From the NCBI GenBank assembly GCA_011390645.1, contig JAABRY010000004.1, positions 1,608-65,607 of the forward strand: 64,000 bases of DNA. The letters are read 5' to 3'. The notes beneath the pieces are model-generated. The model saw nothing but the letters and a program-made list of their open reading frames with translations. It ran no database searches and was not told the DNA's origin. This stretch comes from Gemmatimonadota bacterium (GTDB taxonomy: Bacteria; Gemmatimonadota; Gemmatimonadetes; Gemmatimonadales; GWC2-71-9). A program made the position numbers and the translations under genes. This document shows, in pieces, positions 155 through 53,871 of the stretch (its first letter is position 1; every line of letters starts with the position of its first letter).

Positions 155-925
155 TTGGGGACGGCAGATGTCAGTGCCGACTGTCCCCAAGGAGCGTGTC
201 TCGCGATGGTGTTTGCCGTCCTTCCCCTGCTGTTCCAGCTCACGGCCGACACCGTGCCGAAGCGCACCCCGCTCGAGATGAAGTTCGCGGGCGACGTCGG
301 TTTCGTCAGCACCTCAGGCAACACTTCCGTGCAGACGCTCAACTTCGGTGACAAGATCACGGCCAAGCTGGGCGACCTTACCGTGGCCCAGACGTTCAAC
401 GGGGTGTACGGTCGCAGCAAGGGCAAGTCGGTCACCTCGATCTGGCGCGGCAGTTTTCGGGTGGACCTCTCGGTGCTGGGCGCGATCAGCGTCTACAACC
501 TGAGCAATTACGAGCGCAACGTTTTCGCTGGTCTGGCTTCGCGTATCGCCACCTCCACCGGGCTCTCGTTCCCGGTCGTGCGCAATGCCAAGCATCGCCT
601 GACCCTTGAGGGGGGGGCAACGCTCACCCGGCAGCGGGGCACCGTCGCCGGGCGTCGGGATCTCGACTTCCTCGGCGGGCGCGCCGCCTCCACCTATGTG
701 TATCAATTCGGGCCCCGCGCGCAGGCGGCCCAATCGATGGAGCTGCTGCCCAATTTCCGCGAGCCCGAGGATCTCCGCATCAACACCGAGACCAGCGTCA
801 CCGCCCCGATCACCAAACAGGTCGGCGTCAAGCTCTCGTATGTGATCCGCTACGACGGCTTGCCGCAACCCGGCTTCGAGACGACTGATCGACTCTTCAC
901 GTCCGGCCTGCAGATCTCCCTGTGA
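155..925 (+). CDS. DUF481-family outer-membrane protein
   Basis: 256-aa track ORF. It is beta-strand-rich with alternating hydrophobic residues, and the C-terminus ..SYVIRYDGLPQPGFETTDRLFTSGLQISL is paralogous to the upstream fragment. The start is ambiguous (TTG 155 or ATG 206). Confidence 0.7.
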   Translation: MGTADVSADCPQGACLAMVFAVLPLLFQLTADTVPKRTPLEMKFAGDVGFVSTSGNTSVQTLNFGDKITAKLGDLTVAQTFNGVYGRSKGKSVTSIWRGSFRVDLSVLGAISVYNLSNYERNVFAGLASRIATSTGLSFPVVRNAKHRLTLEGGATLTRQRGTVAGRRDLDFLGGRAASTYVYQFGPRAQAAQSMELLPNFREPEDLRINTETSVTAPITKQVGVKLSYVIRYDGLPQPGFETTDRLFTSGLQISL

Positions 926-2106: not shown

Positions 2107-2177
2107 GGCGACGATGCGTCCCCTTGACCTCGCATCGGACGCGACCAACTTCCGTCATCTCCCGTTGCGAGGCCATC

Positions 2178-2675
2178 ATGCGCCACCTGCCACTCGTCCT
2201 GCTGCCACTCCTCCTCCTCATGGCGTGTGGCGACGCGCCACCGGTCGTGGACGATCCCCCACCGGATCCGCCAGCCGTGACGACTGACGTCACCGTCGTG
2301 GCCACCAGCCAACAGTCGAGTTGGGAAGAAGTGCTCGAGGTGGTGCTGACGAGTGCCGACGATTGGGCCGCCGCGTGGAATCATCTGCACGATGGCGTCG
2401 CGCCGCCGCCGCCAATTCCCGACGTGGACTTCACCACGCAACGGGTGGTGATTGTCACTGCCGGCAGTCGCCCAAGTGGCGGCTTCGGTCTCCGCCACGA
2501 GCGCACGGCGATCGCCGGCGACACCCTCATGCTTGACGTCACCCTGACGGTCCCTGGTCCGACGTGCATGACGACCATGGCGCTCACGTCGCCCGCACTC
2601 GCGCTCGCCATCCCGCTCCTGCCCGCCGCCGTGCTGGTTCGGCGCACCGAGCAGGTCACGGAGTGCGAACCCTAG
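2178..2675 (+). CDS. PrcB-domain lipoprotein (protease-complex subunit PrcB-like)
   Basis: ATG 2178 inside track ORF 1980..2675 gives a signal peptide plus lipobox (LLLLMAC). The segment ..VDFTTQRVVIVTAGSRPSGGFGL..LTVPGPTCMTTMALTSP fits the PrcB C-terminal domain pattern. Confidence 0.6.
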   Translation: MRHLPLVLLPLLLLMACGDAPPVVDDPPPDPPAVTTDVTVVATSQQSSWEEVLEVVLTSADDWAAAWNHLHDGVAPPPPIPDVDFTTQRVVIVTAGSRPSGGFGLRHERTAIAGDTLMLDVTLTVPGPTCMTTMALTSPALALAIPLLPAAVLVRRTEQVTECEP

Positions 2676-2739
2676 TCCCCCCCCCCAGTCCGCCCGTCCT
2701 GCCTTCTTCCCTCTCCTTCTCACGCTACGGAGTCGCTGC

Positions 2740-3102
2740 ATGGATCGCCCCACAGTTGCCGGTCTTGGCGGTGTCGTCCTCTTCGCCGATCACGCCGATA
2801 CGCTCGCCCACTGGTACGAGCGCACCCTCGGGCTCTTCTTCACCCGCGAACCCGGGTCGCATGAATGGTGGAGTGAGGTGGGTGGCGGGCCGGCCTTCGC
2901 GATTCACCAGGCGAAGCATCCGCTCGGGCATGACCGACGCCACTGCGAGATCACCTGGCGCGTGACCGATCTCGATGCCTTCCTGGAGCACCTTGCCGAA
3001 ATCGGGATCACCGCGGAAGAGCGGCAAGAGACGCCCGACGGCGACTTCGCGTGGCTGGATGACCCGGAGGGGAACCGGATCGAGTTGTGGCAGGGGCGGT
3101 GA
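2740..3102 (+). CDS. VOC/glyoxalase-family protein
   Basis: 120 aa with a glyoxalase/bleomycin-resistance-like pattern (GGVVLFADHADTLAHWYERTLGL ... DPEGNRIELWQ). Confidence 0.8.
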   Translation: MDRPTVAGLGGVVLFADHADTLAHWYERTLGLFFTREPGSHEWWSEVGGGPAFAIHQAKHPLGHDRRHCEITWRVTDLDAFLEHLAEIGITAEERQETPDGDFAWLDDPEGNRIELWQGR

Positions 3103-3104
3103 AG

Positions 3105-3215
3105 GGGAGAGAGGGTGAAAGGTGAAAGGTGAAACGGGGTGCGATCTCGACATCGCCTTGTAGGGCACACACCGCTCCGCGGCGGGCCCCCCTTTCACCT
3201 TTCACCTTCTCTCCC
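3105..3215. repeat. hairpin whose arms are (GGTGAAA)n-type heptamer arrays
   Basis: Left arm 3105-3129 GGGAGAGAGGGTGAAAGGTGAAAGG pairs with right arm 3191-3215 CCTTTCACCTTTCACCTTCTCTCCC (24 Watson-Crick pairs plus 1 G.T out of 25). The loop is about 61 nt. The element exactly fills the gap between two convergent stop codons. Confidence 0.9.
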
Positions 3216-3709
3216 TACATCCGCGTCCGATCCGGGAACTCGCTCCGCAAGATCGCCGATCCCTCAAGCATGACCAGCATGCCGGATTCCGGCAGGGCCG
3301 CCACGCCGACCACGGTGAGCGTGGGGGGGGCATTGGGGTCCGTGGCGGCGAGCACCGCAGCGCGAATCGTCTCGACCGCCTCGGGCGTGAGGTCACGGAC
3401 ATACGCCGTGATCCGCACGACGTCACCCGATACGCCACGCGCCGCGCTCACCACCGACAAGAAATTCCGCATCGCCTGCCCCACCTGCGCGTCGAGCGTG
3501 GTACCGACGAGCTGCCCCTGTGCATTCACCGGAACCATTCCGCTGATCTGCACGCTGAGTCCGGCACGCACGGCGTGCGGCATGCCGTTGAGCTCCGGCA
3601 CGTCTGGCGCCGTGATGCGCTGCGGCACGGGGACGGGGGTCGGCGCCACGCGCGGAGGTGGGGCGGCGCAGGCGGTGAGGAGGGCGAGGGCAGGAATCAG
3701 GACGCGCAT
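3215..3709 (-). CDS. RidA/YjgF-family protein, lipoprotein form
   Basis: ATG 3709 gives a lipoprotein signal (ALALLTAC). RidA-like motifs are present (GMVPVNAQGQLVG, QVGQAMRNFLSVV, ITAYV). The longer track ORF to 3796 only translates heptamer repeats. Confidence 0.8.
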   Translation of the reverse strand: MRVLIPALALLTACAAPPPRVAPTPVPVPQRITAPDVPELNGMPHAVRAGLSVQISGMVPVNAQGQLVGTTLDAQVGQAMRNFLSVVSAARGVSGDVVRITAYVRDLTPEAVETIRAAVLAATDPNAPPTLTVVGVAALPESGMLVMLEGSAILRSEFPDRTRM

Positions 3710-3724
3710 GTGGTCCAATCTCGT

Positions 3725-3848
3725 GTCGTAGGTCGTAGGTCGTAGGTCGTACGATGCTGGATGTTGGATCTTGGAGTGGGCAAAGTCCCGTTTCACCTTT
3801 CACGTTTCACCTTGTTGCCCCTCACCCCTCACCCCTCACCCCTCACCC
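3725..3848. repeat. composite array of four different heptamer families, no inverted partner
   Basis: On the + strand it reads (GTCGTAG)x4 at 3725-3751, GGATGTT-like x2 at about 3757-3772, TTTCACC/TTTCACG x3 at 3791-3811, and (CCTCACC)x4 at 3818-3848. Confidence 0.9.
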
Positions 3849-3867
3849 GCGCGGCGGAGCCGCGCCC

Positions 3868-5358
3868 CTAGTCTTTTGGCCACCGCCGCGCCATCTCGTC
3901 AATCACGGCGCGCCGGATGTCGCGAAACTCGGTGATCGGCCCGAGGCCGGCAGTGCCTGGCGCAAGGTAGTCGAGGCCCCGCTCCCGCCCGGTGAGCAGG
4001 AAGTCGGTGGTCGCCACCACATACACACGCTCTGGGCGAATCGGTTCCCCCGCCACCATCCAGCCAGCATTGGTGCGGGTGACGTTGTCGGCGTGCAGGA
4101 AGCCGCCGCTGCCCCGGTTCGCGATCCCCTGTTCGAGGACACGGGTGAGGAGCTCGCCGGTCATTGTTGTCCGGCTCACGAGCCCACCAAAGGGCAACAC
4201 CCGGATCACATCGTACTGGCTCACCGCGCCGGCGGGGAGCACGTCGTCGATCCGGATCGAGCCACCATTCATGAGGCCGACCTCTGCGTCAGGCACTTCA
4301 CCTCGCAATGCGGCCGCGATCAACGCCGTGAGGTTCCCCTCGCGCACGCGCACCGTCGCCTCCCGCCCGTCGAGCGCCTCCGGTATCGTCGCCACCGTCG
4401 CAGTGGGGTCAAGCCCTTCAGCGACATACGCTGCGAAAACGCGATCGACCCACCGCTGCACCTGTGCCGCGACCCCAGGGTGCTCTGGAATCGAAGCGTC
4501 CACCGCCACGAAGCGGATATCGGTCACCACGGCTGGGGCGTCGGGGTTCAGGGTGATCAGCGCCACGGTGCGCACATTGGCGTCGGCCTTCACGATCGGC
4601 GTGAAGCCGGGCCCTCGTCGCAGCAGGTAGTTCTCGTGCTCGTGCCCGCCCACCAGCAGGTCCAGCTCCGGGAAGAGTTCCACGGCGCGTTGATCCTCGG
4701 CGAGCGTCTGGTGGGTGAGGGCCACCAGCAGGTCCACCGAATCTCGCAGGGCAGTGATGTCGCGGCGGAGCGCCTCGACCGGGTCGGCGTAACGCACCCA
4801 CGGCACCCGGTTCGCATCAAGGGTGACGCCCACCAGGCCGATGCGGACTGACCCACCCGGAGTCGCCACGGTCACGATCGCCCGCGGGACGGTATTGGGG
4901 AAAAGGCGGCCTGCCGAGTCGGTGACATTGCCTGCGATGTGGCCAAAACGGGATTCGCCCAGGCGGGCACGGAATTCCGCCTCGCGGATGTCGAACTCGT
5001 GGTTCCCCAGCACGGCCCAATCGAGCCCGACCGCGTTGAGGATCTCCACCATCTGGCGACCGGCGAGGCGGCTGCCGTCGATCTGGGCGAGGCCCATCGC
5101 CGAGGGGGAATAGAAGTCACCGCCGAGCAGCGTCAGGAGCGGGGTCCGATTGGTGAGAAGGCGTTCCCGAATGGTGGCGACACGAGCCAGCCCGCCACTC
5201 TTCCCCCCCTCCACCGGGGTGATCTCATAGACGTCGTTGAAGTGCAGGATGGTCACCTGACGGGACGGCACCGGCGAGGGGGTGGCCGCCGGCCGCGTCG
5301 GAGCGCAGGCGAGGGCGGCCACACTGGCGAGGGCAAGGAGGTGCAGGGAGGTGCGCAT
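3868..5358 (-). CDS. bifunctional metallophosphatase/5'-nucleotidase (UshA-like), lipoprotein
   Basis: 496 aa with signal plus lipobox (VAALAC). Calcineurin-like motifs are present (ILHFNDVYE, GGDF, GNHEFD, GGHEH), followed by a C-terminal 5'-nucleotidase substrate domain. Confidence 0.85.
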   Translation of the reverse strand: MRTSLHLLALASVAALACAPTRPAATPSPVPSRQVTILHFNDVYEITPVEGGKSGGLARVATIRERLLTNRTPLLTLLGGDFYSPSAMGLAQIDGSRLAGRQMVEILNAVGLDWAVLGNHEFDIREAEFRARLGESRFGHIAGNVTDSAGRLFPNTVPRAIVTVATPGGSVRIGLVGVTLDANRVPWVRYADPVEALRRDITALRDSVDLLVALTHQTLAEDQRAVELFPELDLLVGGHEHENYLLRRGPGFTPIVKADANVRTVALITLNPDAPAVVTDIRFVAVDASIPEHPGVAAQVQRWVDRVFAAYVAEGLDPTATVATIPEALDGREATVRVREGNLTALIAAALRGEVPDAEVGLMNGGSIRIDDVLPAGAVSQYDVIRVLPFGGLVSRTTMTGELLTRVLEQGIANRGSGGFLHADNVTRTNAGWMVAGEPIRPERVYVVATTDFLLTGRERGLDYLAPGTAGLGPITEFRDIRRAVIDEMARRWPKD

Positions 5359-5461
5359 CCCCCAAATCTACCCGCGCCAAGGGCTCCGGGGTGGTGATTC
5401 CCGCGCCTTTGTGCAACGTTTACGGCTTGGATCGTCAGTGAAAGTTGTCCCCAAACCAGGA

Positions 5462-6364: not shown

Positions 6365-6819
6365 TGCGGCGTGGACTGATGGCCGTGGCGGCCGTGCTCG
6401 TCACCACAGTGCTCGTCGCCTGGCGCGCCGCGCCCGCGACAGACCAGCTGCCCGTGGTTCGGGTGGTGAAGTCGGCGAGCTGCGGATGTTGTCAGGCGTG
6501 GGTGGACTACATGAAGGCGCAGGGCTTCACGGTGGAAGTCGAGAATCGTGACGAGTTCACCGCGCTCAAGCGTGCCAACGGGGTCACCCGCGATCTCGAG
6601 TCGTGCCACACCGCGTTCGCGGGCGACCTCGTCATCGAGGGACACGTCCCGGCCGACCTGATCAAGAAGGTGCTCGCGGCCAAGACCCCCGGCGTGAAGG
6701 GGATTGCGGTGCCGGGGATGCCGATGGGGTCACCGGGCATGGAAGGGCCGACCAAGGATCGCTACACGGTCTTCACGTTTGATGCGCAGGGGCGGAAGAC
6801 GGCCTACGCGCAGCGGTGA
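6364..6819 (+). CDS. DUF411 (CopG-like) periplasmic metal-binding protein
   Basis: 151 aa with an N-terminal TM/signal. CGCC and GVPGMPMGSPGME motifs are typical of DUF411. The ATG overlaps the previous stop (TGATG). Confidence 0.8.
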   Translation: MRRGLMAVAAVLVTTVLVAWRAAPATDQLPVVRVVKSASCGCCQAWVDYMKAQGFTVEVENRDEFTALKRANGVTRDLESCHTAFAGDLVIEGHVPADLIKKVLAAKTPGVKGIAVPGMPMGSPGMEGPTKDRYTVFTFDAQGRKTAYAQR

Positions 6820-6952
6820 AGGGATGGAAGGTGAAAGGTGAAACGTGAAACGTGAAAGGGCACGGAAGCGTCGCCCCTGCGCAGGGAGCCTGGCTTCCAG
6901 CTGAGGCTCCCTTTCACGTTTCACGTTTCGCCTTCCGCGTTTCACCCTCACC
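6815..6952. repeat. hairpin built from GTGAAAG/GTGAAAC heptamers with a nested palindrome
   Basis: A perfect 21-bp core pairs 6840-6860 with 6909-6929, with imperfect extension over 6831-6938. Inside the loop, GGAAGC (6864-6869) pairs with GCTTCC (6893-6898), and there is a 12-bp palindrome CCCTGCGCAGGG at 6875-6886. Confidence 0.9.
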
Positions 6953-8792: not shown

Positions 8793-8795
8793 GTG

Positions 8796-8939
8796 GGATG
8801 CTGGATGTTGGATGTTGGATGTTGGACCCTCGTCCCCACCGGAGGGAGGGACCTCGTCTAGCGCCACCTTCGGGACCTCCGCGGTGGGTGTTGCGGCAGA
8901 TCCAAAGCTCCAACATCCAACATCCAACATCCAACATCC
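8796..8939. repeat. hairpin built from (GGATGTT)n / (AACATCC)n arrays
   Basis: Left arm 8796-8826 pairs with right arm 8909-8939 over 31 bp with one mismatch. The loop is about 82 nt and contains CCCACCG/CGGTGGG. The element fills the gap between convergent stops at 8792 and 8941. Confidence 0.9.
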
Positions 8940-8940
8940 C

Positions 8941-17084: not shown

Positions 17085-17746
17085 TGCCGCGAGAAAGTCG
17101 CGCGGCGAAGCTCGCCCGTGTCGAGCGCATCCTCGCCGCCCTGCACGCCCAGCACCCGGACGCCCATTGCGAACTCGACCATCGCAACGCCTTCGAGTTG
17201 CTCTGCGCAACGATTCTCTCGGCCCAGTGTACTGATGCGCGCGTGAACATGGTGACGCCGGCGCTCTTCGCCCGATTCCCGGATGCCCATGCCCTCGCGG
17301 CCGCGAAGCAGGAGGATGTCGAGGAATTGGTGCGCTCCACGGGCTTCTTCCGCAACAAGGCGAAGTCGCTGATCGGGATGGCGCGTGCCCTGGTCGCCGA
17401 GCATGACGGCGAGGTGCCACGGAGCATGGAGGCGCTTCGGCCGCTCCCAGGTGTGGGACGCAAGACCGCCAACGTCATCCTTGGTAACGCCTTTGGATTG
17501 AACGAGGGGATCACCGTCGATACCCATGTCAAGCGGATTGCCAAGCTGCTTCGGCTCACCCGCTCCGACAATCCGGAGCAGGTGGAACGCGATCTGATGC
17601 CGCTGGTGCCGCGCGATGACTGGACTGTGGTGAGCCATCTCCTGATCTTCCACGGTCGACGGACCTGCATTGCGAATCGGCCGCGGTGTGGGGAGTGTGT
17701 TGTTGCTGATGACTGTCCCAGTAGAGTCGTAGGTCGTAGGTCGTAG
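17084..17746 (+). CDS. nth: endonuclease III
   Basis: HhH-GPD motif (LPGVGRKTANVILG), catalytic region and a 4Fe-4S cluster loop (CIANRPRCGECVVADDC). The ATG shares one base with the polX stop (TGATG). Confidence 0.9.
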   Translation: MPRESRAAKLARVERILAALHAQHPDAHCELDHRNAFELLCATILSAQCTDARVNMVTPALFARFPDAHALAAAKQEDVEELVRSTGFFRNKAKSLIGMARALVAEHDGEVPRSMEALRPLPGVGRKTANVILGNAFGLNEGITVDTHVKRIAKLLRLTRSDNPEQVERDLMPLVPRDDWTVVSHLLIFHGRRTCIANRPRCGECVVADDCPSRVVGRRS

Positions 17747-17857
17747 GTCGTAAGTCTTGTGCAACTAGCCCCCTCGCTGGTTCTCTGGTTTGCGACCTCC
17801 TACGACCTGTGACCTACGACCTACGACATTGAGACCTACGACCTACGACCTACGACC
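17727..17857. repeat. hairpin built from (GTCGTAG)n / (CTACGAC)n arrays
   Basis: Left array 17727-17757 pairs perfectly over 24 bp (17727-17750 with 17833-17856). A second, degenerate right-hand array at 17792-17828 offers alternative pairings. Confidence 0.9.
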
Positions 17858-17875
17858 TTCCAAGGAGCTTTCCGA

Positions 17876-18741: not shown

Positions 18742-18743
18742 CA

Positions 18744-18814
18744 GCGAACGGCGAGCCGCGAGCAGCGAACAGAGGGTGTGCAGCACCGATCGCCGTTCGC
18801 GGCTCGCCGTTCGC
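18744..18814. repeat. 18-bp perfect hairpin with 7-nt periodic arms (GCGAACG/GCGAGCC type)
   Basis: GCGAACGGCGAGCCGCGA at 18744-18761 pairs perfectly with TCGCGGCTCGCCGTTCGC at 18797-18814. The loop is 35 nt. The hairpin starts 3 nt after the stop at 18741. Confidence 0.85.
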
Positions 18815-18844
18815 CGATGACGTCCCTCGCCTTAGCTTTGTGAC

Positions 18845-26837: not shown

Positions 26838-26856
26838 CGGCGAGCAGCAACAAGGG

Positions 26857-26909
26857 AAACGTGAAAGGTGAAAGGGGCGCCAACGCTGCCCGTTTCACCT
26901 TTCACGTTT
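26857..26909. repeat. 17-bp perfect hairpin from GTGAAAG/GTGAAAC heptamers, followed by (CGTTCAC)x2
   Basis: AAACGTGAAAGGTGAAA at 26857-26873 pairs perfectly with TTTCACCTTTCACGTTT at 26893-26909. It starts about 20 nt after the permease stop. CGTTCAC x2 follows at about 26916-26929. Confidence 0.85.
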
Positions 26910-26952
26910 TGCCCCCGTTCACCGTTCACGCCACACCACTATCTTGGGCCCC

Positions 26953-42329: not shown

Positions 42330-44528
42330 ATGATGCCTCGACGCACAGCAGCACTCCGCACCCGGGCGCATGCGTCTGCAGGGGAAACGTGTGTGAACGA
42401 TGAGGATCCGTCAGGCGTCGGCGCCGCCATCGTGGACTCGCTCCTGGATGGCGCGCGTGACGCCACCTTCGTGTTGAATCCGAAGGGTGACCTGACGGCT
42501 GCGAACACCGTTGGTGAGCGCTTGTTGGGATGGTCGTCGGATGAACTCCACGGCCGCCCCTTTCTGGCGTTCATTCCGGAGCGTTTCCACCGTGTCGTGG
42601 AGCATCGGCCGACGACGGTTCCCGCAGATTCGCCGACCGACCCACCGACCAGCACCACCATCACGCTTCGGGCGTTGCGCCGCGATGGCACGGAGGTGCC
42701 CGTCGAGATCACGCGGCATCCCCTGGGTGATGGGACCAGTCCGTGCACACTCGTCACGCTCCGTGACGTCAGTGCGAGTTATCGAGCGCGGGAGGCCTTG
42801 CTGCGCGAGAAGGAGGTGGCGGTCTCCACCCTCGCCTCCATCGGGGATGGTGTGGTGACGACGGACCTCGAGGGGAATGTCTCCTACCTCAACGCTGCTG
42901 CGGAACGACTCACCGGCTGGCGCATGTTCGAGGCGATGGGACATCCCATCATGGTGGTCATGCCGCTGATCTCGGAGGCGAGCCGGTTGCCGGTCGAGGG
43001 ACCGATCGCCCGATGCCTGCGTGAGGAGCGGTCGGTGGAGTCGCCCGAGGGGATGATGTTGCTCCGCCGCGACGGAACCGAGATGCCCTTCGGCGATTCG
43101 GCCTCACCGATCCGTGAGATTGGTGGTCGCATGACCGGTGCGGTCCTCGTCTTCCACGACACCAGCGAACGGCGCCGGATCTCGCGTGCGCTGGCCTACG
43201 ATGCCGCCCACGACCCGTTGACCGGGGTTGCCAACCGCACCGCGCTCGAGCGCCAGCTCGCGCGGGTCCTCGCCGAGGTGCGCACCAGTACCGGCACGGA
43301 GGTGCAACACGTCCTCTGCTACTTCGACCTCGATCGCTTCAAGGTCATCAACGACACCGGTGGGCATGCCGTCGGAGACGTGGTGTTGCGTCGGGTGGTC
43401 GAGGTGATCGGGACGCAACTGCGCCGCCGCGACACGCTGGCACGTGTCGGGGGCGACGAATTCGTGGCGTTGCTGGAGCATTGCACGCTCGAAGAGGCCG
43501 AGCGCATCACGACGGCCTGTTGTGCGGCGATCGATGCGCTCCGTGTCACCTCGGGCGACCACACGTTCTCCCTTGGCGTCAGCATCGGCATGGTCCCGAT
43601 CACGCGGGAGATCGAACGCACCGCCGATCTGTTGAAGCTGGCTGATGCGATGTGTTACCGTGCCAAGCACAGCGGTGGAAACCGGGTGCAGATGGCGAGC
43701 GACCATGATGCGGGGGTGGCTCAGGACGACCTCGAGGCACGCCGGGCGGTGCGTGCGGCACAGATGGCGCAGCAGGGCGAACTGGTCCTCCACGTGCGAC
43801 CCATTCTTTCGCTGCACCCAGAGCAGGACGCACGACCACGGTGTGAGTTGATCCTGCACGCACTCGGGGGACGGGTCGGCATGAACGGGCCGGAGAACGC
43901 CGACAATGGTGTCGTCCGCCTCCCGGTCGGCCCGGAAGCGAATCGGTGGATCGTGCATCAGGTCGTCCGCCTCCTGGCGAGGTGGCGCGCGACCCATCCC
44001 AGCGACACGTGGCCGCAATGCATCGTGCCCCTCACCTCCGCGGCCCTGCAGGACGACCGACTCGTGCCGTTGCTCGGCGAGGTACTGACAGAACACGGGG
44101 TGCCAGCGTCGGCGCTCTCCCTGCGCCTTTCCGAGGCAGATGCGCTCGGCAACGTGCCGGCCACGCTACGCCTCGCCACGTCCTTGACCGCGCTGGGATG
44201 CGGCCTGACCCTGAGCGAGTGCGGCAAGAGTCTCGATGCCTTCGCGCAGCTCTCCACCTTGCCGGTGAATCAACTCATCGTATGCGGGAGCCATGTCGCC
44301 AAGGCGGTACGGGATCCCATCCACGCCGGCATCGTCCGCGCCATCGCCGAAATCGGTGTCCACCGACGCATCACGACGATCGCGCCGCAGGTGGACACCC
44401 CTGAATTGCTGGCCGCGTTGCGTACCCTGGGCATCGGGTATGTGCTCGGCGATGCCGTGGCGCCGTTGCGGCCACTGGTGGGCGGGGATGGCGAGGTGGG
44501 GTTCTCGCAGGGAGTCGTGAGTCACTAG
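42330..44528 (+). CDS. PAS-PAS-GGDEF protein with degenerate EAL-like C-terminal domain
   Basis: It has two PAS modules, an intact GGDEF with an RxxD I-site (LRRRDTLARVGGDEF), and a C-terminal EAL-fold-like region lacking the canonical motifs. The start is taken at ATG 42330/42333 after GGAGGG. Confidence 0.85.
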   Translation: MMPRRTAALRTRAHASAGETCVNDEDPSGVGAAIVDSLLDGARDATFVLNPKGDLTAANTVGERLLGWSSDELHGRPFLAFIPERFHRVVEHRPTTVPADSPTDPPTSTTITLRALRRDGTEVPVEITRHPLGDGTSPCTLVTLRDVSASYRAREALLREKEVAVSTLASIGDGVVTTDLEGNVSYLNAAAERLTGWRMFEAMGHPIMVVMPLISEASRLPVEGPIARCLREERSVESPEGMMLLRRDGTEMPFGDSASPIREIGGRMTGAVLVFHDTSERRRISRALAYDAAHDPLTGVANRTALERQLARVLAEVRTSTGTEVQHVLCYFDLDRFKVINDTGGHAVGDVVLRRVVEVIGTQLRRRDTLARVGGDEFVALLEHCTLEEAERITTACCAAIDALRVTSGDHTFSLGVSIGMVPITREIERTADLLKLADAMCYRAKHSGGNRVQMASDHDAGVAQDDLEARRAVRAAQMAQQGELVLHVRPILSLHPEQDARPRCELILHALGGRVGMNGPENADNGVVRLPVGPEANRWIVHQVVRLLARWRATHPSDTWPQCIVPLTSAALQDDRLVPLLGEVLTEHGVPASALSLRLSEADALGNVPATLRLATSLTALGCGLTLSECGKSLDAFAQLSTLPVNQLIVCGSHVAKAVRDPIHAGIVRAIAEIGVHRRITTIAPQVDTPELLAALRTLGIGYVLGDAVAPLRPLVGGDGEVGFSQGVVSH

Positions 44529-44703
44529 TCGTTGGTCGTTGGTCGTTGGTCGTTAGTCATAGGTCGTAGGTCGTAGGTCGTAGGTCGCAAAGGGTGAAGC
44601 GTAAGGCGCAATAGGGGCTGTCGTACTGGTTCCCCTTTCACGTTTCACGTTTCACCTTTTACTAACGACTAACGACTAACGACTAACGACTAACGACTAA
44701 CGA
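44526..44703. repeat. nested composite of four heptamer families
   Basis: The element starts with 9 units at 44526-44588 (TAGTCGT, TGGTCGTx3, TAGTCAT, AGGTCGTx3, AGGTCGC), then a 47-nt centre, then TTTCACG/TTTCACC x3 (44636-44656) and (CTAACGA)x6 (44662-44703). The outer GTCGTTG/GTCGTTA units are complementary, with G.U pairs, to the TAACGAC units. The length was checked against the flanking stop codons. Confidence 0.9.
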
Positions 44704-44709
44704 CCCACC

Positions 44710-45433: not shown

Positions 45434-45460
45434 CGACCTACGACCTACGACCTACGACCT
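45434..45460. repeat. (CGACCTA)x~4 heptamer array
   Basis: Lies immediately after the stop (45461) of the minus-strand ATPase gene. It is the reverse complement of the GGTCGTA family. Confidence 0.9.
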
Positions 45461-46023: not shown

Positions 46024-46065
46024 CTAACGACTAACGACTAACGACTAACGACTAACGACTAACGA
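46024..46065. repeat. (CTAACGA)x6 heptamer array
   Basis: Six perfect units. The last unit supplies the stop (CTA at 46059-46061, which is TAG on the minus strand) and the final Arg codon of the S9 peptidase, whose final Gly codon straddles the array edge. It is identical to the array at 44662-44703. Confidence 0.9.
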
Positions 46066-48980
46066 CCATCAACCGGTGCGTCCTTCGCGATGAACGGGAC
46101 GCCGCTGGTCAGCCAGGTCGGCGCGGCCACGCCGCGCAGGTAGTGGTCGAAGAACTCGAAGTACCGGATCGTCAGGTCCTTTCGGTTCGCGAGGCCGCGC
46201 AAGCCATGGCCTTCACCGGGGTAGGCCAGCATCACCGCCGACTTCCCGTTGTAGCGCAGCGCATTGTAGAAATTCATCCCCTCGCTGAAGCCGACCGTGG
46301 GGTCGGCGGTACCATGCATGATCAGGAACGGTGCCTTCGCGTTGGGGGCATGCGTCATCGCCGACTCGAAACGGTAGCGTTCCGGGTTGTCCCACGGCGA
46401 GAAGCCCCAGCGACCCTGCCCATAGAGGTAATAGCCATTGCCGTTCTGTCCGCTGCCACCGGTGACCTGGTAGCTCCATCCCCAGCTCTGCGAGAAGTCG
46501 GTGGTGAGGTCGGTGACACCGGCGCCCATCCCGACGGCGGCGAAGAGATTCGAGCGCGTGCCGATGAATGCTGCGCCCTCGCCACCGTAGCTGTGGCCGT
46601 GCACGCCGATCCGCTTCGGGTCCACGTATCCCATCGCGATCACCTTCCGCGTGGCGGCCTCCACCGCGTCGAGCATGTCGCTGTGTGACGACCCGGTGTG
46701 GAAGTGCACGTCCGGCAGCATCGTCGCATACCCGCGGCTGACCGCTTCGACCGGCATCCCACCCATCCCGGTGAGGAACGAGGGGGTCGGATAGCGATGC
46801 ATCGTCTGCGAGTTCTTCTCGTAGAAGGTCACCAGCATCGGCAGCTTCTGGCCGCTGACATGGTCATCCGGCAGGGCGAGCACCCCCTGCAGCTTCACCC
46901 CGCGTCGGGTGGTGTAATCGAAGAGGATCCGGCGGCCCCAGCGGTATTCGGTCTGGTGCGGGTTGGCATCGCTGATCTTCACCGGGTCCGCGAGATCCTG
47001 ACGCGCCAGCAGCAGGTCGGGGAAGTCGCGGAAGGTCTGGCGCGTGAAGAGGACGCGGTCGCTCCCCGCCACACCGTTCGGGGTGCTGAACGCGGCATCG
47101 TCAAAGACGAGGGGCTGCATCTGACCGTCGGTCAGGCGATAGAAGCCGGACTTCTTGGTCCACTGCCCATAGGCAGACAGGGTGATCGGTGCGTCGAGGT
47201 CGATCTCGCGCGCCAGCCGGGCGGCGCGCTGCACGGTCGAGTCGATCGGCGTGATCCGTACCGGGCGGAAGACGATCTCCTCACGGGTACCAAGACCGTT
47301 GGTGAGATTGCGTGCCGGTGTTGCGCCGTTGAAGGGCAGGAGCCAAAGGTCGTACCGTGACTGCGCGATCACCCCGCTGCCATCGGCCGCGTAGCCGGCG
47401 ACGCCGTAGGAGGGCACGGGGCCCGGATAGTCGAACTCGCGGTTCACGAGGCTCGGCGCACCCGCGCCAAGCGGCCGGGTCGCGCCGGCCGCCAGATCGT
47501 AGGCATGCCACCGCGCGTCCTTCCAATAGAGGAATCGCGAACCATCAGGTGAGATCCCGCCAACATGCTGGCCGGTGAGCTGCCCCGTCAGCATCGGGGT
47601 CCGTTCACCGGTGACGGTGTTCACCCGGAAGAAATCCGCCGCCGATGGCTTGTAGTCGGAGATGTACGGCCGCGGGTCGCGACCGACGGCCCAGATGCCG
47701 GTCACCGGCAACTCGATGTCACGCATGGCGGAGTCCGTGAGCGTGATGTAGCGCCCAGCGCCGACATCAAACGCCTGGCGGAAGGTGCGGTTCCGCTCCA
47801 TCTCGGCCTGGATCATCTGCTGTGACTGGATCCGCTCGTCCTGCGTGAGCCAGACATCGACGTTCGCGAGGGAGTCCGTGCTCTTGCGGCGGCCGGTGTC
47901 GGGTGCGGTCGTCTGCGGAATGATGCCGAAGAAGACACGCGCGCCGTCCTCACTCCACTCGAGCGAGGCGCGCTCGCTCACTTCGAAGCCGGTCGGGAAG
48001 CCTTCGGTCGACGTCGGGTCGAGCACGACCGAGGTCGCAGGCGCCGTCACCTGGGGGAAGACGATCAATCGATTGGCGCGTTCCCGCTTCTTCTCCACTT
48101 CACTACCCTTGAGGACGGCGAGTGCCGTGCCCGCATCGTTCCAGGCCAGGCGACCATAGCGGAGGGTGTCATTGTCGAGTGCCTCGATCCGGCCCGTCGC
48201 CAGCGTCGCGAGGTAGACGCCATTGGCATCACGCACTGCGGCGTCCACAGTGTACGCGAGGTGAGACCCATTCTTGTTGAAGGCGATCTCGTTCACGCTG
48301 CCGAGGTAGAGCGAACGATCGGTGGTGAGATCATGCAGGATCGCATCGAGGCCGCGCGGGGCGTTCGGTCCCGGCGGACTCCCCCCCCCTGATGCCCCGG
48401 ACGTGGCGGGGCGACGGCGCAGGACCAGGTGACTCGAGGTGGTCGAGAAGGTCGCGCCCTGGATCTCCTGCCACGACCTCGTGACGCCGGTGGCCAGTTC
48501 ACGCAGCTCCCATCGCCGCGTCACCTTGGTGCCGGCAGCTCCGCGCGCGGCGGGCGTGGCGGGGGGTGCTGGCGTCGCAGGAGGAGACGTGGAATCCGCG
48601 GGCGTGGTGGTCGAGTCCGCGCGGCGCGGTGAGGGGCGCTTGGGCTGGATTTCGACCAGGTAGGTCAGCCACTTCCCGTCGGGTGAGAACGAGGGATCCG
48701 AGGCATCGGCAATCTCGATCTCCGTGCCGGCCCCCACGTCACGCAGGCGGAGCACCGGCTTCGCATCCGGCGCGAGGGTGTTGGCGTGACGCAGCCCATA
48801 CACGACCCACTTTCCGTCATGCGACAACTGGGCGTCCTGAATGGTCCGCCAACGGGCGTAGTCCTCGACACCGAGCACTTTCGTGCCGGGCGCGGCCGTG
48901 GTGTCCTGTGCGTGGACGAGGGCTGGGGCCGTGACCAGGAGCAGCACGCCGAGCAGCGTGGCGGAGCGGAGCAGGGACAT
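46059..48980 (-). CDS. S9-family serine peptidase (prolyl oligopeptidase/DPP type) with N-terminal beta-propellers
   Basis: 973 aa with a signal peptide. It has TolB/WD40-like repeats, the nucleophile motif GHSYGG and downstream Asp/His regions (MHGTADPTV, GEGHGL). Confidence 0.85.
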   Translation of the reverse strand: MSLLRSATLLGVLLLVTAPALVHAQDTTAAPGTKVLGVEDYARWRTIQDAQLSHDGKWVVYGLRHANTLAPDAKPVLRLRDVGAGTEIEIADASDPSFSPDGKWLTYLVEIQPKRPSPRRADSTTTPADSTSPPATPAPPATPAARGAAGTKVTRRWELRELATGVTRSWQEIQGATFSTTSSHLVLRRRPATSGASGGGSPPGPNAPRGLDAILHDLTTDRSLYLGSVNEIAFNKNGSHLAYTVDAAVRDANGVYLATLATGRIEALDNDTLRYGRLAWNDAGTALAVLKGSEVEKKRERANRLIVFPQVTAPATSVVLDPTSTEGFPTGFEVSERASLEWSEDGARVFFGIIPQTTAPDTGRRKSTDSLANVDVWLTQDERIQSQQMIQAEMERNRTFRQAFDVGAGRYITLTDSAMRDIELPVTGIWAVGRDPRPYISDYKPSAADFFRVNTVTGERTPMLTGQLTGQHVGGISPDGSRFLYWKDARWHAYDLAAGATRPLGAGAPSLVNREFDYPGPVPSYGVAGYAADGSGVIAQSRYDLWLLPFNGATPARNLTNGLGTREEIVFRPVRITPIDSTVQRAARLAREIDLDAPITLSAYGQWTKKSGFYRLTDGQMQPLVFDDAAFSTPNGVAGSDRVLFTRQTFRDFPDLLLARQDLADPVKISDANPHQTEYRWGRRILFDYTTRRGVKLQGVLALPDDHVSGQKLPMLVTFYEKNSQTMHRYPTPSFLTGMGGMPVEAVSRGYATMLPDVHFHTGSSHSDMLDAVEAATRKVIAMGYVDPKRIGVHGHSYGGEGAAFIGTRSNLFAAVGMGAGVTDLTTDFSQSWGWSYQVTGGSGQNGNGYYLYGQGRWGFSPWDNPERYRFESAMTHAPNAKAPFLIMHGTADPTVGFSEGMNFYNALRYNGKSAVMLAYPGEGHGLRGLANRKDLTIRYFEFFDHYLRGVAAPTWLTSGVPFIAKDAPVDGR

Positions 48981-52549: not shown

Positions 52550-53827
52550 ATGTCTTCGCGCCGCGCGTTCGTCCAGTCCCTCGCCGGGATGGGGGCTACC
52601 CTGCCGATGTTCCGCCCCGATGCCATCCGCCGTGCAGTGCGCGCGACCGGTCGTCTCGATGGGGCGCCTGACGACGAGCGCTACTGGGGCGAGATCCAGC
52701 GTGCCTTCGACACTGATCGCACGATGGTCAACCTCAACAACGGTGGCGTCTGTCCGACACCGACGCACGTGCTTGACCAGATGATCGGTGACCTGCGCTT
52801 CAGCAACGAACTGCCGGTCCACCACATGTGGAACGTGCTGGAGCCGCGCATCGAGAGCGTGCGCCGTGAACTGGCCATCGACTTCGGCTGTGACCCCGAG
52901 GAAATGGCGATCACGCGCAATGCCTCGGAGGCACTCGAGACGCTGATCCTCGGACGCGATCTGCAGCCGGGTGACGAGGTGCTCGTCACCAACCAGAACT
53001 ATGGCCGAATGCTCACCACCTGGGATCAGCGCGTCCGACGCGACGGCATCGTGGTGAATGCGGTCTCCTTTCCCGTGCCGCCGCCGTCACAAGAGCATCT
53101 GGTGGAGGTCTTCCGCCGCGCGATCACGCCGCGCACGAAGATCCTCGAGGTCACCCACATCACCAATCTCACGGGGCAGATCTTCCCGGTGCGCGAGATC
53201 ACCGCGATGGCGGCGGAGCGGGGTGTCGAGGTCTTCGTGGACGGCGCGCACGCGTATGCCCACTTCCCCTTCACGCGCGACGAACTCGGCGTGGACTTCT
53301 ACGGCACGTCGCTGCACAAGTGGCTGCTCGCCCCGATCGGTACGGGCTTTCTCTACGTGCGGAAGTCCAGGATCCCCGGGCTCTGGCCACTGATGGCCGC
53401 GCCGGAGAAGATGAACGATAACATTCGGAAGTACGAGGAAATCGGCACCCACCCCGCCGCCAACCACAATGCGATCGCCGCGGCGTTGGCCTTCCATCGG
53501 AGTATCGGCGGCGAGCGGAAGATTGCGCGCCTGCGCTACCTGCGGGATCGCTGGGCGAAGCGACTCCTCGCGTTCAGCCCACGGGTGCGCGTGCTTACCC
53601 CGCTCGATTCACCGCATGCCGGTGCGATCGGCCTGATCAGCGTGGAAGGGTTGGAGCCGAGCAAGCTCACGCCGTGGTTGATGGAGAAACACCGCATTGT
53701 CACCGTCGCCATCAACCACAAGGAATTCTCGGGGCTGCGGATCACCCCGAACGTCTACACAACCGTCGAAGAGGTGGACCGCTTCGGTGACATGATCGAA
53801 CGGGCGGTCACGCAGGGGATTGGGTGA
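52550..53827 (+). CDS. class-V aminotransferase-fold PLP enzyme with Tat-like signal
   Basis: ATG 52550 gives MSSRRAFVQSLAG (twin-Arg). The PLP-lysine region is GTSLHKWLLAP. It resembles isopenicillin-N-epimerase/cysteine-desulfurase-like enzymes. Confidence 0.8.
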   Translation: MSSRRAFVQSLAGMGATLPMFRPDAIRRAVRATGRLDGAPDDERYWGEIQRAFDTDRTMVNLNNGGVCPTPTHVLDQMIGDLRFSNELPVHHMWNVLEPRIESVRRELAIDFGCDPEEMAITRNASEALETLILGRDLQPGDEVLVTNQNYGRMLTTWDQRVRRDGIVVNAVSFPVPPPSQEHLVEVFRRAITPRTKILEVTHITNLTGQIFPVREITAMAAERGVEVFVDGAHAYAHFPFTRDELGVDFYGTSLHKWLLAPIGTGFLYVRKSRIPGLWPLMAAPEKMNDNIRKYEEIGTHPAANHNAIAAALAFHRSIGGERKIARLRYLRDRWAKRLLAFSPRVRVLTPLDSPHAGAIGLISVEGLEPSKLTPWLMEKHRIVTVAINHKEFSGLRITPNVYTTVEEVDRFGDMIERAVTQGIG

Positions 53828-53871
53828 GGGGTGAGGGGTGAGGGGGAAACGGTGAACTGTGAACGGGTGAG
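53823..53871. repeat. (GGTGAGG)x3 + GGGAAAC/GGTGAAC/TGTGAAC/GGGTGAG heptamer array
   Basis: Seven consecutive 7-nt units starting within the stop codon region of the aminotransferase gene. It lies between convergent stops 53827 and 53912. Confidence 0.9.

What the first reader, a model, noticed from the sequence alone, without database searches (positions are those of the whole stretch)
3105..3215. Hairpins whose arms are tandem heptanucleotide arrays: first of 11 or more post-stop heptamer sites
At this locus, 25-nt arms made of GGTGAAA units pair 24 Watson-Crick plus 1 G.T. They start 3 nt after one stop codon and end on the first base of the convergent stop. The same design recurs with other 7-mers at 6815-6952, 8796-8939, 17727-17857, 18744-18814, 26857-26909 and 44526-44703. 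Single-armed arrays occur at 3725-3848, 45434-45460, 46024-46065 and 53823-53871. The unit families are GGTGAAA/GGTGAAC, GGTCGTA, GGATGTT, GGTGAGG, GTCGTTA/GTCGTTG and GCGAACG/GCGAGCC, all with strict 7-nt period. Placement is strongly biased. Five of the 6 non-overlapping convergent gaps carry an array, as do 6 co-directional gaps (always right after the upstream stop). None of the 8 divergent promoter gaps has one. The loops are not conserved, so these are not copies of one MITE, and the arms look locally expanded. Stems are 17-31 bp with no real U-tract, which is long enough to be RNase III substrates. The closest analogue I know is the heptameric STRR repeats of heterocystous cyanobacteria. 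I do not know this inverted-array, stop-codon-anchored version from a high-GC genome.
Basis: partly seen in the sequence, partly recalled or inferred. Interest (0 to 1): 0.65.

Follow-up and report, generated by a model that had tools for sequence, protein, structure and literature searches.

The report
Heptamer-repeat hairpins after stop codons
In this Gemmatimonadales genome many gene 3' ends are followed by long hairpins whose arms are tandem 7-base repeats; the pattern is real and strongly non-random, but it matches the poorly understood intergenic heptamer repeats already described in Xanthomonas and cyanobacteria.

Summary
The window (67% GC, order Gemmatimonadales) has 18 perfect period-7 runs of at least 17 nt, against 0.18 expected. 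All lie in the 6% of the window that is intergenic. They occupy 5 of 5 real convergent gaps, 6 of 16 co-directional gaps and 0 of 6 divergent gaps. Seven sites fold into 20-31 bp near-perfect stems that abut the stop codons.

Three results are new. First, the G-rich strand is the sense strand of the upstream gene in 53 of 59 post-stop arrays with unequal G and C, across the window and 80 related loci. Second, orthologous gaps in six related genomes keep a hairpin with repeat arms but use different 7-mers. Third, other Gemmatimonadales lineages show the same layout with 8- or 10-nt units, or a plain hairpin.

Best reading: these are gene-end stem-loops without a U-tract (terminator or 3'-end protector). 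Their stems appear to grow by slippage of short units and to be kept complementary between arms. That function is inferred, not shown.

Rehm et al. 2015 described the same placement, strand polarity, inverted pairs and scarcity in divergent gaps for GGGAATC arrays in Xanthomonas. I file this as a new member of a known but unexplained kind.

The parts
3104..3216 (.). Hairpin in the convergent gap between the glyoxalase-like gene (+, stop 3100-3102) and the RidA/L-PSP-like gene (-, stop 3215-3217). The 5' arm is GGGGAGAGAG+(GGTGAAA)x3 at 3104-3134. The 3' arm is 3189-3216.
   Evidence: 26-bp stem (24 Watson-Crick + 2 G.T), -71.5 kcal/mol, z = -7.7.
3725..3866 (-). Co-directional gap on the - strand carrying several unpaired arrays. 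Read on the - strand after the stop at 3868: a small GC hairpin (3849-3866), (GGTGAGG)x4.4 at 3818-3848, (GGTGAAA/CGTGAAA)x3.3 at 3791-3813, degenerate TCCAACA x2 at about 3757-3775, then (CTACGAC)x3.9 at 3725-3751.
6815..6952 (.). Hairpin in the convergent gap between DUF411 (+, TGA 6817-6819 inside the first degenerate unit) and the acyltransferase gene (-, ORF low end 6914, so its stop codon and last codons lie under the 3' arm). Arms are GGTGAAA/CGTGAAA x6.3 and TTTCACG x4.9, around an inner GC hairpin.
   Evidence: -91 kcal/mol; unit variants mirrored between arms.
8793..8940 (.). Hairpin in the convergent gap between the M42 peptidase gene (+, stop 8790-8792) and the HEAT-repeat gene (-, stop 8941-8943). 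Arms are (GGATGTT)x4.4 and (AACATCC)x4.4.
   Evidence: -87 and -96 kcal/mol; z = -7.8.
17721..17858 (+). Hairpin in the co-directional gap between nth-like and cyclophilin genes. (GTCGTAG)x5 overlaps the TAG stop at 17744-17746. The 3' arm is (CCTACGA)x8.4 and ends 3 nt before the AAGGAG Shine-Dalgarno sequence (17862-17867).
   Evidence: The Logan contig L081 breaks exactly at 17858-17860.
18742..18816 (+). Hairpin directly after the DUF6941 stop (18739-18741). The arrays are degenerate period-7 (GCGAACG/GCGAGCC/GCGAGCA), yet the arms pair over 20 bp with one G.U.
   Evidence: (z = -4.4). The sequence is identical in L081.
26852..26929 (+). Hairpin after the FtsX-type permease stop (26835-26837). 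The sequence AAACGTGAAAGGTGAAA is mirrored exactly in the 3' arm. An unpaired (CCGTTCA)x2.1 follows at 26915-26929.
   Evidence: (z = -4.1).
44526..44704 (.). Composite nested hairpin in the convergent gap after the PAS-GGDEF-EAL gene (TAG 44526-44528 is part of the first unit). The 5' side is (GTCGTTG)x4 plus (GTCGTAG)x4. The 3' side is (TTTCACG)x3.4 plus (ACTAACG)x6.3 and ends 5 nt before the stop of the - strand ORF at 44710.
   Evidence: -96 kcal/mol; z = -9.4.
45434..45460 (-). Single-armed array. On the - strand, TGA is followed directly by (AGGTCGT)x3.9, after the AAA_28 gene stop (45461-45463).
46024..46066 (-). Single-armed array (TCGTTAG)x6.1 on the - strand. The TAG stop of the S9 peptidase gene (46059-46061) is one of its units. 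The array ends 11 nt before the next start codon (46010-46012).
53822..53871 (+). Single-armed arrays (GGGTGAG)x3.4 then (AACGGTG)x2.7. The TGA stop of the aminotransferase gene (53825-53827) lies inside the first unit. There is no complementary arm in this convergent gap.

Best explanation
These are lineage-specific intergenic microsatellites with 7-nt units. They are the same kind of element as the Xanthomonas GGGAATC arrays and the cyanobacterial STRR repeats. Here they form, or extend outward, the stem of the stem-loop that sits at the 3' end of a gene or operon.

What is conserved is a U-tract-less 3' hairpin directly after the stop codon. It would act as a transcript 3'-end element: a terminator or pause hairpin, or a barrier to 3' exonucleases after Rho-dependent termination. 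In convergent gaps it would work in both directions.

In this clade the stems grow by replication slippage of short units on both arms. A mutated unit spreads quickly within an arm. The opposite arm then follows, either through selection for pairing or through template-switch correction between the arms. The architecture and position therefore persist while the 7-mer sequence turns over.

Shown: the arrays, the stems, their placement, the strand polarity, conservation of the architecture at orthologous gaps, unit turnover, and concerted change in both arms. Inferred: transcription through the sites, the terminator or stabiliser role, and slippage or template switching as the generating process. 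The G-rich-sense polarity is unexplained.
For: 1. Periodicity and placement are far beyond chance: 18 runs against 0.18 expected, all in the 6% intergenic fraction, at 3' ends and not in divergent gaps.

2. Stems are 20-31 bp with folding energies of -51 to -96 kcal/mol and z of -4 to -9.

3. Gaps without arrays carry ordinary GC-rich hairpins right after the stop, for example at 58023-58153, 39314-39448 and 40491-40583. Canonical hairpin-plus-T-run terminators are not above shuffled background: 5 found against 7.0 expected.

4. Orthologous gaps keep a hairpin but not its sequence.
- After the M42 peptidase gene: window GGATGTT, L001 ACGATAG, L002 GAGATCG, L006 and L011 a 10-nt unit GCGAATGAAC, and plain hairpins in L003, L017, L010 and L013.
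- In the nth/cyclophilin gap: GGTCGTA, GGCGACA, GGGCGAG, GAGTCGT and CAGTAAC in five genomes.

5. Most array hairpins enclose an inner unique GC hairpin. This fits outward extension of an older stem.

6. Arms stay complementary even where the arrays have decayed. At 18742-18816 unit identity is 79% but the stem is 20 bp. Unit variants are mirrored between arms.

7. Sister genomes L001 and L003 (82% amino-acid identity) differ by T/G in most units of both arms at one orthologous hairpin. L083 shows an apparent intermediate, with an A.C mismatch repeated in each unit.

8. Literature. High-GC species have shorter U-tracts and longer terminator stems, and Rho-dependent 3' ends fold into U-less stem-loops (PMC13613805). 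A slippage explanation for the excess of heptamer repeats has been proposed (as cited in PMC4692102 and PMC4679880).
Against: There are no transcript data, so termination or stabilisation is untested.

From memory, and not checked here: in vitro work on mycobacterial RNA polymerase found that hairpins without U-tracts terminate poorly.

Sense-strand folds are not more stable than antisense folds at the three co-directional hairpins. There is therefore no G.U signature of selection at the RNA level, and the palindromes look DNA-symmetric.

Four sites are single-armed or have non-complementary arrays (3725-3848, 45434, 46024, 53822), so hairpin formation cannot be the whole story.

The G>C polarity on the sense strand (53 against 6) is not predicted by a hairpin model.

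Gaps within one genome share a unit family more often than gaps from different genomes (26/96 against 61/465, p = 0.001). Whole modules also appear between genes that overlap in relatives (gap E). Local slippage alone explains neither point well.
Confidence: 0.55

Rival explanations
1. The arrays are a neutral by-product. Heptamer microsatellites expand wherever polymerase slippage is tolerated. They survive only in the least constrained DNA, the 3' gaps, and have no function. Inverted pairs arise because a slippage-prone 7-mer in one arm of an existing palindrome has an equally slippage-prone complement in the other arm.
For: Arrays are absent from coding sequence and from divergent promoter gaps. 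Unit sequence turns over quickly. Arm copy numbers can be unequal. Some arrays are single-armed. Heptamer excess is common across bacteria and has been attributed to slippage.
Against: The strand polarity is strong: 53 against 6, p = 2e-10. Non-array 3' flanks show no G-C skew (161 against 187). An array hairpin persists in the same gap across genomes at 70-90% amino-acid identity. Arm complementarity exceeds within-arm unit identity. Arrays start 0-10 nt from the stop rather than anywhere in the gap.
Confidence: 0.2
2. The arrays are REP/BIME-like or MITE-like elements. A trans-acting protein (a RAYT-type transposase, some other hairpin-binding enzyme, or an RNA/DNA-binding factor) recognises a genome-specific set of 7-mers and spreads, maintains or uses the arrays. 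This would explain why different gaps in one genome share units while orthologous gaps in other genomes do not.
For: Unit families recur within a genome. In the window, GGTGAAA/CGTGAAA is at 5 gaps and GGTCGTA at 4. L001 uses GGCGACA in two neighbouring gaps, and L004 uses GAGTCGT in two gaps. Same-genome sharing is 26/96 against 61/465 between genomes (p = 0.001). Whole hairpin modules are present or absent between genes that overlap in sister genomes (L004 against L005). REPs also lie after stop codons and are not found in promoters (PMC2817692).
Against: Loops and cores are not conserved. I saw no target-site duplication at filled versus empty sites (by eye). There is no single palindromic consensus. 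No transposase gene is present in the window. The sharing statistic allows one mismatch and is inflated by the clade-wide GGTGAAN family.
Confidence: 0.12
3. The G-rich sense-strand array is itself the functional part, and the hairpin is secondary. One option is a stop pad: because 7 is not a multiple of 3, a unit containing TGA or TAG presents a stop in all three frames within three units. A second option is a C-poor spacer that keeps Rho from loading in untranslated inter-cistronic RNA. A third is a repeated binding site for an RNA-binding protein or the ribosome, since AGGTGA resembles an extended Shine-Dalgarno sequence.
For: Polarity is 53 against 6. The stop codon of the upstream gene lies inside the first unit at 6817, 17744, 44526, 46059 and 53825. 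Units contain a sense-strand stop in 31 of 62 cases, against 9 of 62 on the antisense strand and 21.5 expected from shuffled units. Single-armed arrays in short operon gaps (45434, 46024) are always G-rich in the sense direction.
Against: Half the units carry no stop codon, including GGATGTT, GCGAACG and GAGATCG. Most sites also have a complementary C-rich arm, which this idea does not need. No data exist on Rho or on binding proteins. The Shine-Dalgarno resemblance applies to one unit family only.
Confidence: 0.08
4. The arrays form non-B DNA or RNA structures (G-quadruplex or i-motif, or cruciform) that act at the DNA level, as was proposed for the Xanthomonas GGGAATC arrays.
For: (GGTGAGG)n at 3818-3848 and 53822-53845 gives four or more G4 runs separated by TGA. 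Perfect DNA palindromes could extrude as cruciforms. G-quadruplex formation was shown in vitro for Xanthomonas oligonucleotides.
Against: Most unit families (GGTGAAA, GGTCGTA, GGATGTT, GTCGTTA) have no runs of three or more G and cannot form canonical quadruplexes.
Confidence: 0.03

Closest known systems
GGGAATC heptamer arrays of Xanthomonas campestris and X. axonopodis, and GGGGA(C/T)T arrays of Nostoc PCC 7120 (Rehm et al. 2015, PMC4692102)
   Same: Tandem 7-nt units in a high-GC genome. They are 89-93% intergenic and lie close to the upstream ORF. The G-rich strand is on the coding strand 0-50 bp after the stop, or overlapping it. About 40% form convergent inverted pairs able to make stem-loops. 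They are rare between divergent genes. Related species have them in the same gaps but with length and sequence variation. Their function is unknown.
   Different: Xanthomonas has one dominant unit (GGGANTN) with quadruplex potential and a modal array of 4 units. Here at least six unit families sit side by side, most of them unable to form quadruplexes. Arms make 20-31 bp near-perfect stems around an inner hairpin. Sister lineages use 8- or 10-nt units in the same layout.
STRR (short tandemly repeated repetitive) heptamers of heterocystous cyanobacteria
   Same: Several families of tandem heptanucleotides dispersed in intergenic DNA of one genome (and my own knowledge of Mazel et al. 1990).
   Different: Different phylum, GC content and unit sequences. 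In Nostoc only a few inverted pairs were seen for the GGGGA(C/T)T arrays. Anchoring to stop codons has not been reported as a defining feature.
REP/BIME extragenic palindromes and their RAYT transposases (Nunvar et al. 2010, PMC2817692)
   Same: Extragenic stem-loop-forming repeats at gene 3' ends, in alternating orientation, with genome-specific sequences. They have been linked to transcription termination and, from my own knowledge, to mRNA stabilisation.
   Different: A REP is one conserved 20-40 nt imperfect palindrome with a GT[AG]G head. It is present in hundreds of copies and tied to a RAYT gene. Here the arms are microsatellite arrays, loops are unrelated, and no RAYT is seen in the window.
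U-tract-less ('I-shaped') 3' stem-loops of high-GC bacteria, and stem-loops at Rho-dependent 3' ends
   Same: A GC-rich hairpin shortly after the stop with no T-run. Stems are longer in high-GC species (PMC13613805).
   Different: Ordinary examples have unique stems of about 8-15 bp. Here the stems are built from tandem 7-nt units and reach 31 bp.
TAACTGA direct repeats of marine Beggiatoaceae and some cyanobacteria (MacGregor 2015, PMC4679880)
   Same: Intergenic tandem heptamers whose unit contains stop codons.
   Different: Those lie mostly just upstream of start codons. They consist of a single unit, and only one inverted repeat was found among 170 sets.

Membership tests
Intergenic heptameric SSR arrays of the Xanthomonas/Nostoc type (Rehm 2015) | Tandem repeats with a 7-nt unit, at least 2 units, over-represented relative to other periods | tested here: met
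   There are 18 perfect runs at period 7 against 0-1 at other periods and 0.18 in simulations. Over 1.7 Mb of related DNA, intergenic arrays by period are 7: 70, 8: 18, 10: 9, 9: 8, 6: 3.
Intergenic heptameric SSR arrays of the Xanthomonas/Nostoc type (Rehm 2015) | Strong bias to non-coding DNA | tested here: met
   All 18 runs lie in the 6.1% of the window that is intergenic.
Intergenic heptameric SSR arrays of the Xanthomonas/Nostoc type (Rehm 2015) | Close to the upstream ORF, with the G-rich strand on its coding strand 0-50 bp after the stop or overlapping it | tested here: met
   Of 62 post-stop arrays in the window and 80 loci, 53 have G>C on the sense strand and 6 have C>G (p = 2e-10). 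Distances to the stop are mostly -12 to +10 nt.
Intergenic heptameric SSR arrays of the Xanthomonas/Nostoc type (Rehm 2015) | A substantial fraction occurs as convergent inverted pairs | tested here: met
   Seven of 11 sites in the window are inverted pairs that fold into stems.
Intergenic heptameric SSR arrays of the Xanthomonas/Nostoc type (Rehm 2015) | Under-represented between divergent genes | tested here: met
   The window has 0 of 6 divergent gaps against 5 of 5 convergent (p = 0.002). In relatives, 5 of 135 divergent gaps carry arrays against 6 of 55 convergent and 25 of 262 co-directional, using rough gene calls.
Intergenic heptameric SSR arrays of the Xanthomonas/Nostoc type (Rehm 2015) | One dominant G-tract unit (GGGANTN or GGGGAYT) able to form G-quadruplexes | tested here: not met
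   At least six families are present (GGTGAAA, GGTCGTA, GGATGTT, GTCGTTA, GGTGAGG, GCGAACG). Only GGTGAGG has G-runs.
STRR of heterocystous cyanobacteria | Specific heptamers (such as CCCCAGT) in heterocystous cyanobacteria | tested here: not met
   The organism belongs to Gemmatimonadales and the units are different.
REP/BIME (RAYT-associated) | A single conserved 20-40 nt imperfect palindrome with a GT[AG]G head, in many copies | tested here: not met
   The arms are arrays of varying units, and loops share only chance 8-mers.
REP/BIME (RAYT-associated) | A cognate RAYT (Y1 transposase) gene in the genome | not testable with these tools
   Only 64 kb of this genome is available. None of the 29 window proteins scanned against Pfam is a transposase.
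Canonical intrinsic (Rho-independent) terminator | GC-rich hairpin immediately followed by a U-tract | tested here: not met
   Hairpins are present but no T-run follows any of them. The consensus scan found 5 sites against 7.0 expected, none at the arrays.
MITE | Conserved core, terminal inverted repeats and a target-site duplication | tested here: not met
   Cores are unrelated. No clear duplication is visible at filled versus empty orthologous sites.
Any Rfam RNA family | Match at the gathering threshold | tested here: not met
   No matches in the whole window.

The most novel reading that the evidence does not exclude
The hairpins are not passive microsatellites. They would be the product of a dedicated, lineage-tunable mechanism that builds gene-end stem-loops from short repeat modules. 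Unit length (7, 8 or 10 nt) would be set by the lineage and unit sequence by the genome. The G-rich strand would be laid down in the sense direction starting at the stop codon. Candidate mechanisms include a trans-acting hairpin- or repeat-specific enzyme or binding protein that co-evolves with its units, or templated repeat addition coupled to transcription or translation termination. If so, this would be a previously unrecognised, modular class of bacterial 3'-end element.
Probability: 0.12. Interest if true: 0.8.

Novelty: new member of a known kind. Interest (0 to 1): 0.42.

Why it matters
Intergenic heptamer repeats have been known since 1990 in cyanobacteria, were shown in 2007 to be the most over-represented long microsatellite class in bacteria, and were mapped in Xanthomonas in 2015. 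Their function and the reason for the 7-nt unit are still unknown.

This Gemmatimonadales clade offers a clean comparative system. The same gene-end gaps in related genomes hold a plain hairpin, a hairpin with 7-nt array arms, or one with 8- or 10-nt array arms. The strand polarity is strong and unit turnover is fast.

That pattern points to the 3' stem-loop as the conserved feature and the repeats as its mode of growth. It gives concrete predictions for Term-seq, Rho-inhibition and RNase III experiments.

There is also a practical point. These arrays break short-read assemblies at gene ends, so they are under-represented in metagenome-assembled genomes.

Tried and rejected
1. Background skew. 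I tested whether the G-rich polarity reflects a general composition skew downstream of genes. It does not. Three hundred and sixty-six non-array 3' flanks have a GC skew of -0.016 (161 against 187), against +0.33 for array flanks.

2. Shared mobile core. Loops from 18 modules share only scattered 8-9-mers. No target-site duplication was evident at filled versus empty sites.

3. Known RNA families and tRNAs. None were found.

4. Canonical terminators. They are not enriched.

5. Strain-level copy-number variation.
- Exact-protein look-ups found only two Logan contigs from one run (SRR29699971), and both end inside arrays.
- A degenerate 29-mer scan of metagenome contigs found nothing.
- The protein-based metagenome scan gave a closest relative at 91% identity, not a conspecific.
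- The slippage-polymorphism prediction therefore remains untested.

6. RNA-level selection. Comparing sense and antisense fold energies at co-directional hairpins showed no asymmetry.

7. Stop-pad idea. Units carry sense-strand stops more often than shuffled units (31 against 21.5 of 62), but half carry none.

8. Literature on Gemmatimonadetes repeats. Nothing was found in the library.

9. Gene calling. My first automatic gene call wrongly placed a + strand ORF at 8884-9660. A GC-by-codon-position frame plot and the Pfam HEAT_2 hit showed that the - strand gene 8941-10080 is the real one.
Full report
**Observation**

The window is 67% GC. Its M42 peptidase gene has its best matches, 74% identity and below, in Gemmatimonadales metagenome-assembled genomes. 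The genes are ordinary housekeeping genes.

TRF and my own scan find 18 perfect period-7 runs of at least 17 nt. Periods 4-6 and 8-12 give 0-1 runs. First-order Markov simulations give a mean of 0.18 runs.

At the focal site, 3104-3129 pairs with 3191-3216 over 26 bp, 24 Watson-Crick plus 2 G.T. The stem starts 1 nt after the TGA of the glyoxalase-like gene. It ends on the first two bases of the convergent stop.

Seven sites fold into 20-31 bp stems with energies of -51 to -96 kcal/mol and z of -4 to -9.

**Placement**

I built a gene map from a codon log-likelihood model. I corrected it at 8.9-12.4 kb with a GC frame plot and Pfam hits.

- All 18 runs lie in the 6.1% of the window that is intergenic.
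- 5 of 5 real non-overlapping convergent gaps carry arrays.
- 6 of 16 co-directional gaps of at least 40 nt carry arrays.
- 0 of 6 divergent gaps carry arrays. Convergent against divergent gives p = 0.002.

Arrays begin at the stop codon. At 6817, 17744, 44526, 46059 and 53825 the stop is itself part of the first unit.

**Strand polarity**

Next to a stop, the G/T-rich strand of the array is always the sense strand of the upstream gene. The window and 80 related loci together hold 62 post-stop arrays of period 7, 8, 10 or 11. Of these, 53 have G>C on the sense strand and 6 have C>G (p = 2e-10).

This is not a background effect. The 366 array-free 3' flanks show no skew (161 against 187).

Units contain a sense-strand stop codon in 31 of 62 cases. 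The antisense figure is 9 and the shuffled expectation is 21.5. Stop content therefore explains only part of the polarity.

**Relatives**

The closest genomes (L001-L004, L007, L008; 69-75% M42 identity) are equally rich in heptamer arrays. L001 has 14 in 21 kb. Most other Gemmatimonadales loci have none.

Some lineages show the same post-stop, G-rich-sense, inverted layout with 8-nt units (L035, L067, L071) or 10-nt units (L006, L011).

Synteny allows a gap-by-gap comparison.

| Gap | Window | Relatives |
|---|---|---|
| Glyoxalase / RidA | GGTGAAA | L001 TGAGTCC; L002 GGTGAAC |
| DUF411 / acyltransferase | GGTGAAA and CGTGAAA | L001 GTCGATA; L003 plain hairpins |
| M42 / HEAT | GGATGTT | L001 ACGATAG; L002 GAGATCG; L006 and L011 10-nt arrays; L003, L017, L010, L013 plain hairpins |
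| nth / cyclophilin | GGTCGTA | L001 GGCGACA; L003 GGGCGAG; L004 GAGTCGT; L083 CAGTAAC/CAGTGAC |
| DUF6941 / HD | GCGAACG | L001 GGCGACA; L003 GGGCGAG |

A gene-end hairpin is thus conserved in position and architecture, while the repeat unit is not.

**How the arrays evolve**

- L001 and L003 are sisters (82% identity). At one orthologous hairpin they differ by T against G in most units of both arms, which is concerted change.
- L083 has an A.C mismatch repeated in each of three units. This looks like a unit variant that has swept one arm but not yet the other.
- Where arrays have decayed (18742-18816, 79% unit identity), the arms still pair over 20 bp. Unit variants are mirrored between arms.
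- Most modules enclose an inner unique GC hairpin.

Together these points fit stems that grow outward by unit slippage, homogenise quickly within an arm, and are then restored to complementarity.

**What local slippage does not explain**

- Gaps in one genome share unit families about twice as often as gaps from different genomes (26/96 against 61/465, p = 0.001).
- A whole module is present between two genes in L001, L003 and L004. Those genes overlap or abut in the window, L002 and L005, including the L004/L005 sister pair.
- Four sites are single-armed or carry non-complementary arrays.

These observations keep a REP-like or trans-factor model alive. However, loops are unrelated, no target-site duplication is visible, and no transposase is present in the window.

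**Function**

Nothing here measures RNA.

- In favour of a 3'-end role: array-free gaps carry ordinary GC hairpins just after the stop. Canonical hairpin-plus-T terminators are not above background. High-GC bacteria are reported to have longer stems and shorter U-tracts, and Rho-dependent 3' ends fold into U-less stem-loops (PMC13613805).
- Against a simple RNA-only reading: sense and antisense folds are equally stable.

I commit to a gene-end stem-loop (terminator or 3'-end protector) built and extended by short-unit slippage, at about 0.55. The polarity is left unexplained.

**Comparison with what is known**

A closer one exists. Rehm et al. 2015 (PMC4692102) described GGGAATC arrays in Xanthomonas (from my own knowledge about 65% GC) with these properties:

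- 89-93% are intergenic.
- They lie on average 28 nt from the upstream ORF against 160 nt from the downstream one.
- The G-strand is on the coding strand within 50 bp of the stop, or overlapping it.
- 70 of 186 form convergent inverted pairs.
- They are scarce between divergent genes.
- Related species have them in the same gaps but with variable length and sequence.
- No function was found.

All of those features are met here (see the membership table). The exception is the single quadruplex-prone unit. This clade has several unit families, most of them not quadruplex-forming, and sister lineages use 8- or 10-nt units.

I found no paper on such repeats in Gemmatimonadota. REP/BIME, MITE, canonical terminator and Rfam memberships each fail a defining feature.

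**Verdict**

It is a new member, in a new phylum and with a multi-unit repertoire, of a known but unexplained class of intergenic heptamer repeats.

Its value lies in the comparative evidence that the conserved entity is the 3' hairpin, and in the clear strand polarity. Interest is moderate.

Noticed in passing
L081 (matches window 17861-19968), L082 (ends about 38 nt past the stop at 6819), L039 positions 1-20 and 7297-7316: Short-read contigs of the same organism (Logan, SRR29699971; 3 SNPs in 2,108 nt) begin or end exactly inside heptamer arrays. Both ends of the L039 contig are also arrays. The repeats break k-mer assemblies at gene ends, so metagenome-assembled genomes probably under-report them.
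   Followed up: partly
L035 3276-3339 and 17111-17208; L067 3885-3934; L071 5767-5905; L006 11055-11211; L011 11035-11065 and 11995-12031: Other Gemmatimonadales lineages have the same post-stop, G-rich-sense, often inverted arrays, but with 8-nt units (for example GGGCGGTC, ACGACGGA, GGCGGTTG, GACGGTAG) or 10-nt units (GCGAATGAAC, GAGGGCGGGA). Unit length appears to be lineage-specific.
   Followed up: partly
Window 6361-6367; L001 8426-8569; L003 8529-8669; L004 1213-1400; L005 3131-3140; L002 4166-4169: The two genes that overlap at 6364 in the window (TGATG) are separated in L001, L003 and L004 by a 140-190 nt array-hairpin module. They abut in L002 and in L005, the sister of L004. This implies gain or loss of whole modules inside an operon.
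   Followed up: partly
L083 1197-1295: In the closest relative found (cyclophilin 91% identical), the nth/cyclophilin gap hairpin has a 5' arm of (CAGTAAC)n and a 3' arm complementary to (CAGTGAC)n and (CCGTGAC)n. The result is an A.C mismatch in every unit. The 5' arm here is C>G, one of the few exceptions to the polarity rule.
   Followed up: no
Window 3791-3813, 6830-6857, 26853-26913, 44636-44659: The alternating 14-mer GGTGAAACGTGAAA recurs at four separate gaps (17 matches with up to 2 mismatches, against 0.2 expected). AGGTGA resembles an extended Shine-Dalgarno sequence, and the complementary arm resembles the 16S 3' tail. This is a resemblance from memory and applies to this unit family only.
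   Followed up: no
Window 44526-46066: Three consecutive gaps within 1.6 kb use the same two unit families (GTCGTAG and GTCGTTA). The junction GGTCGTAGGTCGCAA is shared by 44576-44590 and 45432-45446. This suggests local copying between neighbouring gaps.
   Followed up: partly
L040 8689-8770: A very long array, (GGCACTG)x11.7, sits next to three other heptamer arrays in a single roughly 360-nt gap.
   Followed up: no
Window 29254-38620: A 2,804-aa ORF (29799-38213) carries GH94 supersandwich and catalytic domains plus a glucoamylase-like domain, resembling cyclic beta-1,2-glucan synthases. It is preceded by a 545-nt gap and followed by a gap of about 400 nt (213 nt if the doubtful ORF at 38159-38407 is counted). 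Both gaps are AT-richer and carry no arrays.
   Followed up: no
Window 1-20000: Canonical hairpin-plus-T-run terminator motifs are not above shuffled background (5 found against 7.0 expected). This suggests the organism does not rely on classical L-shaped intrinsic terminators.
   Followed up: no
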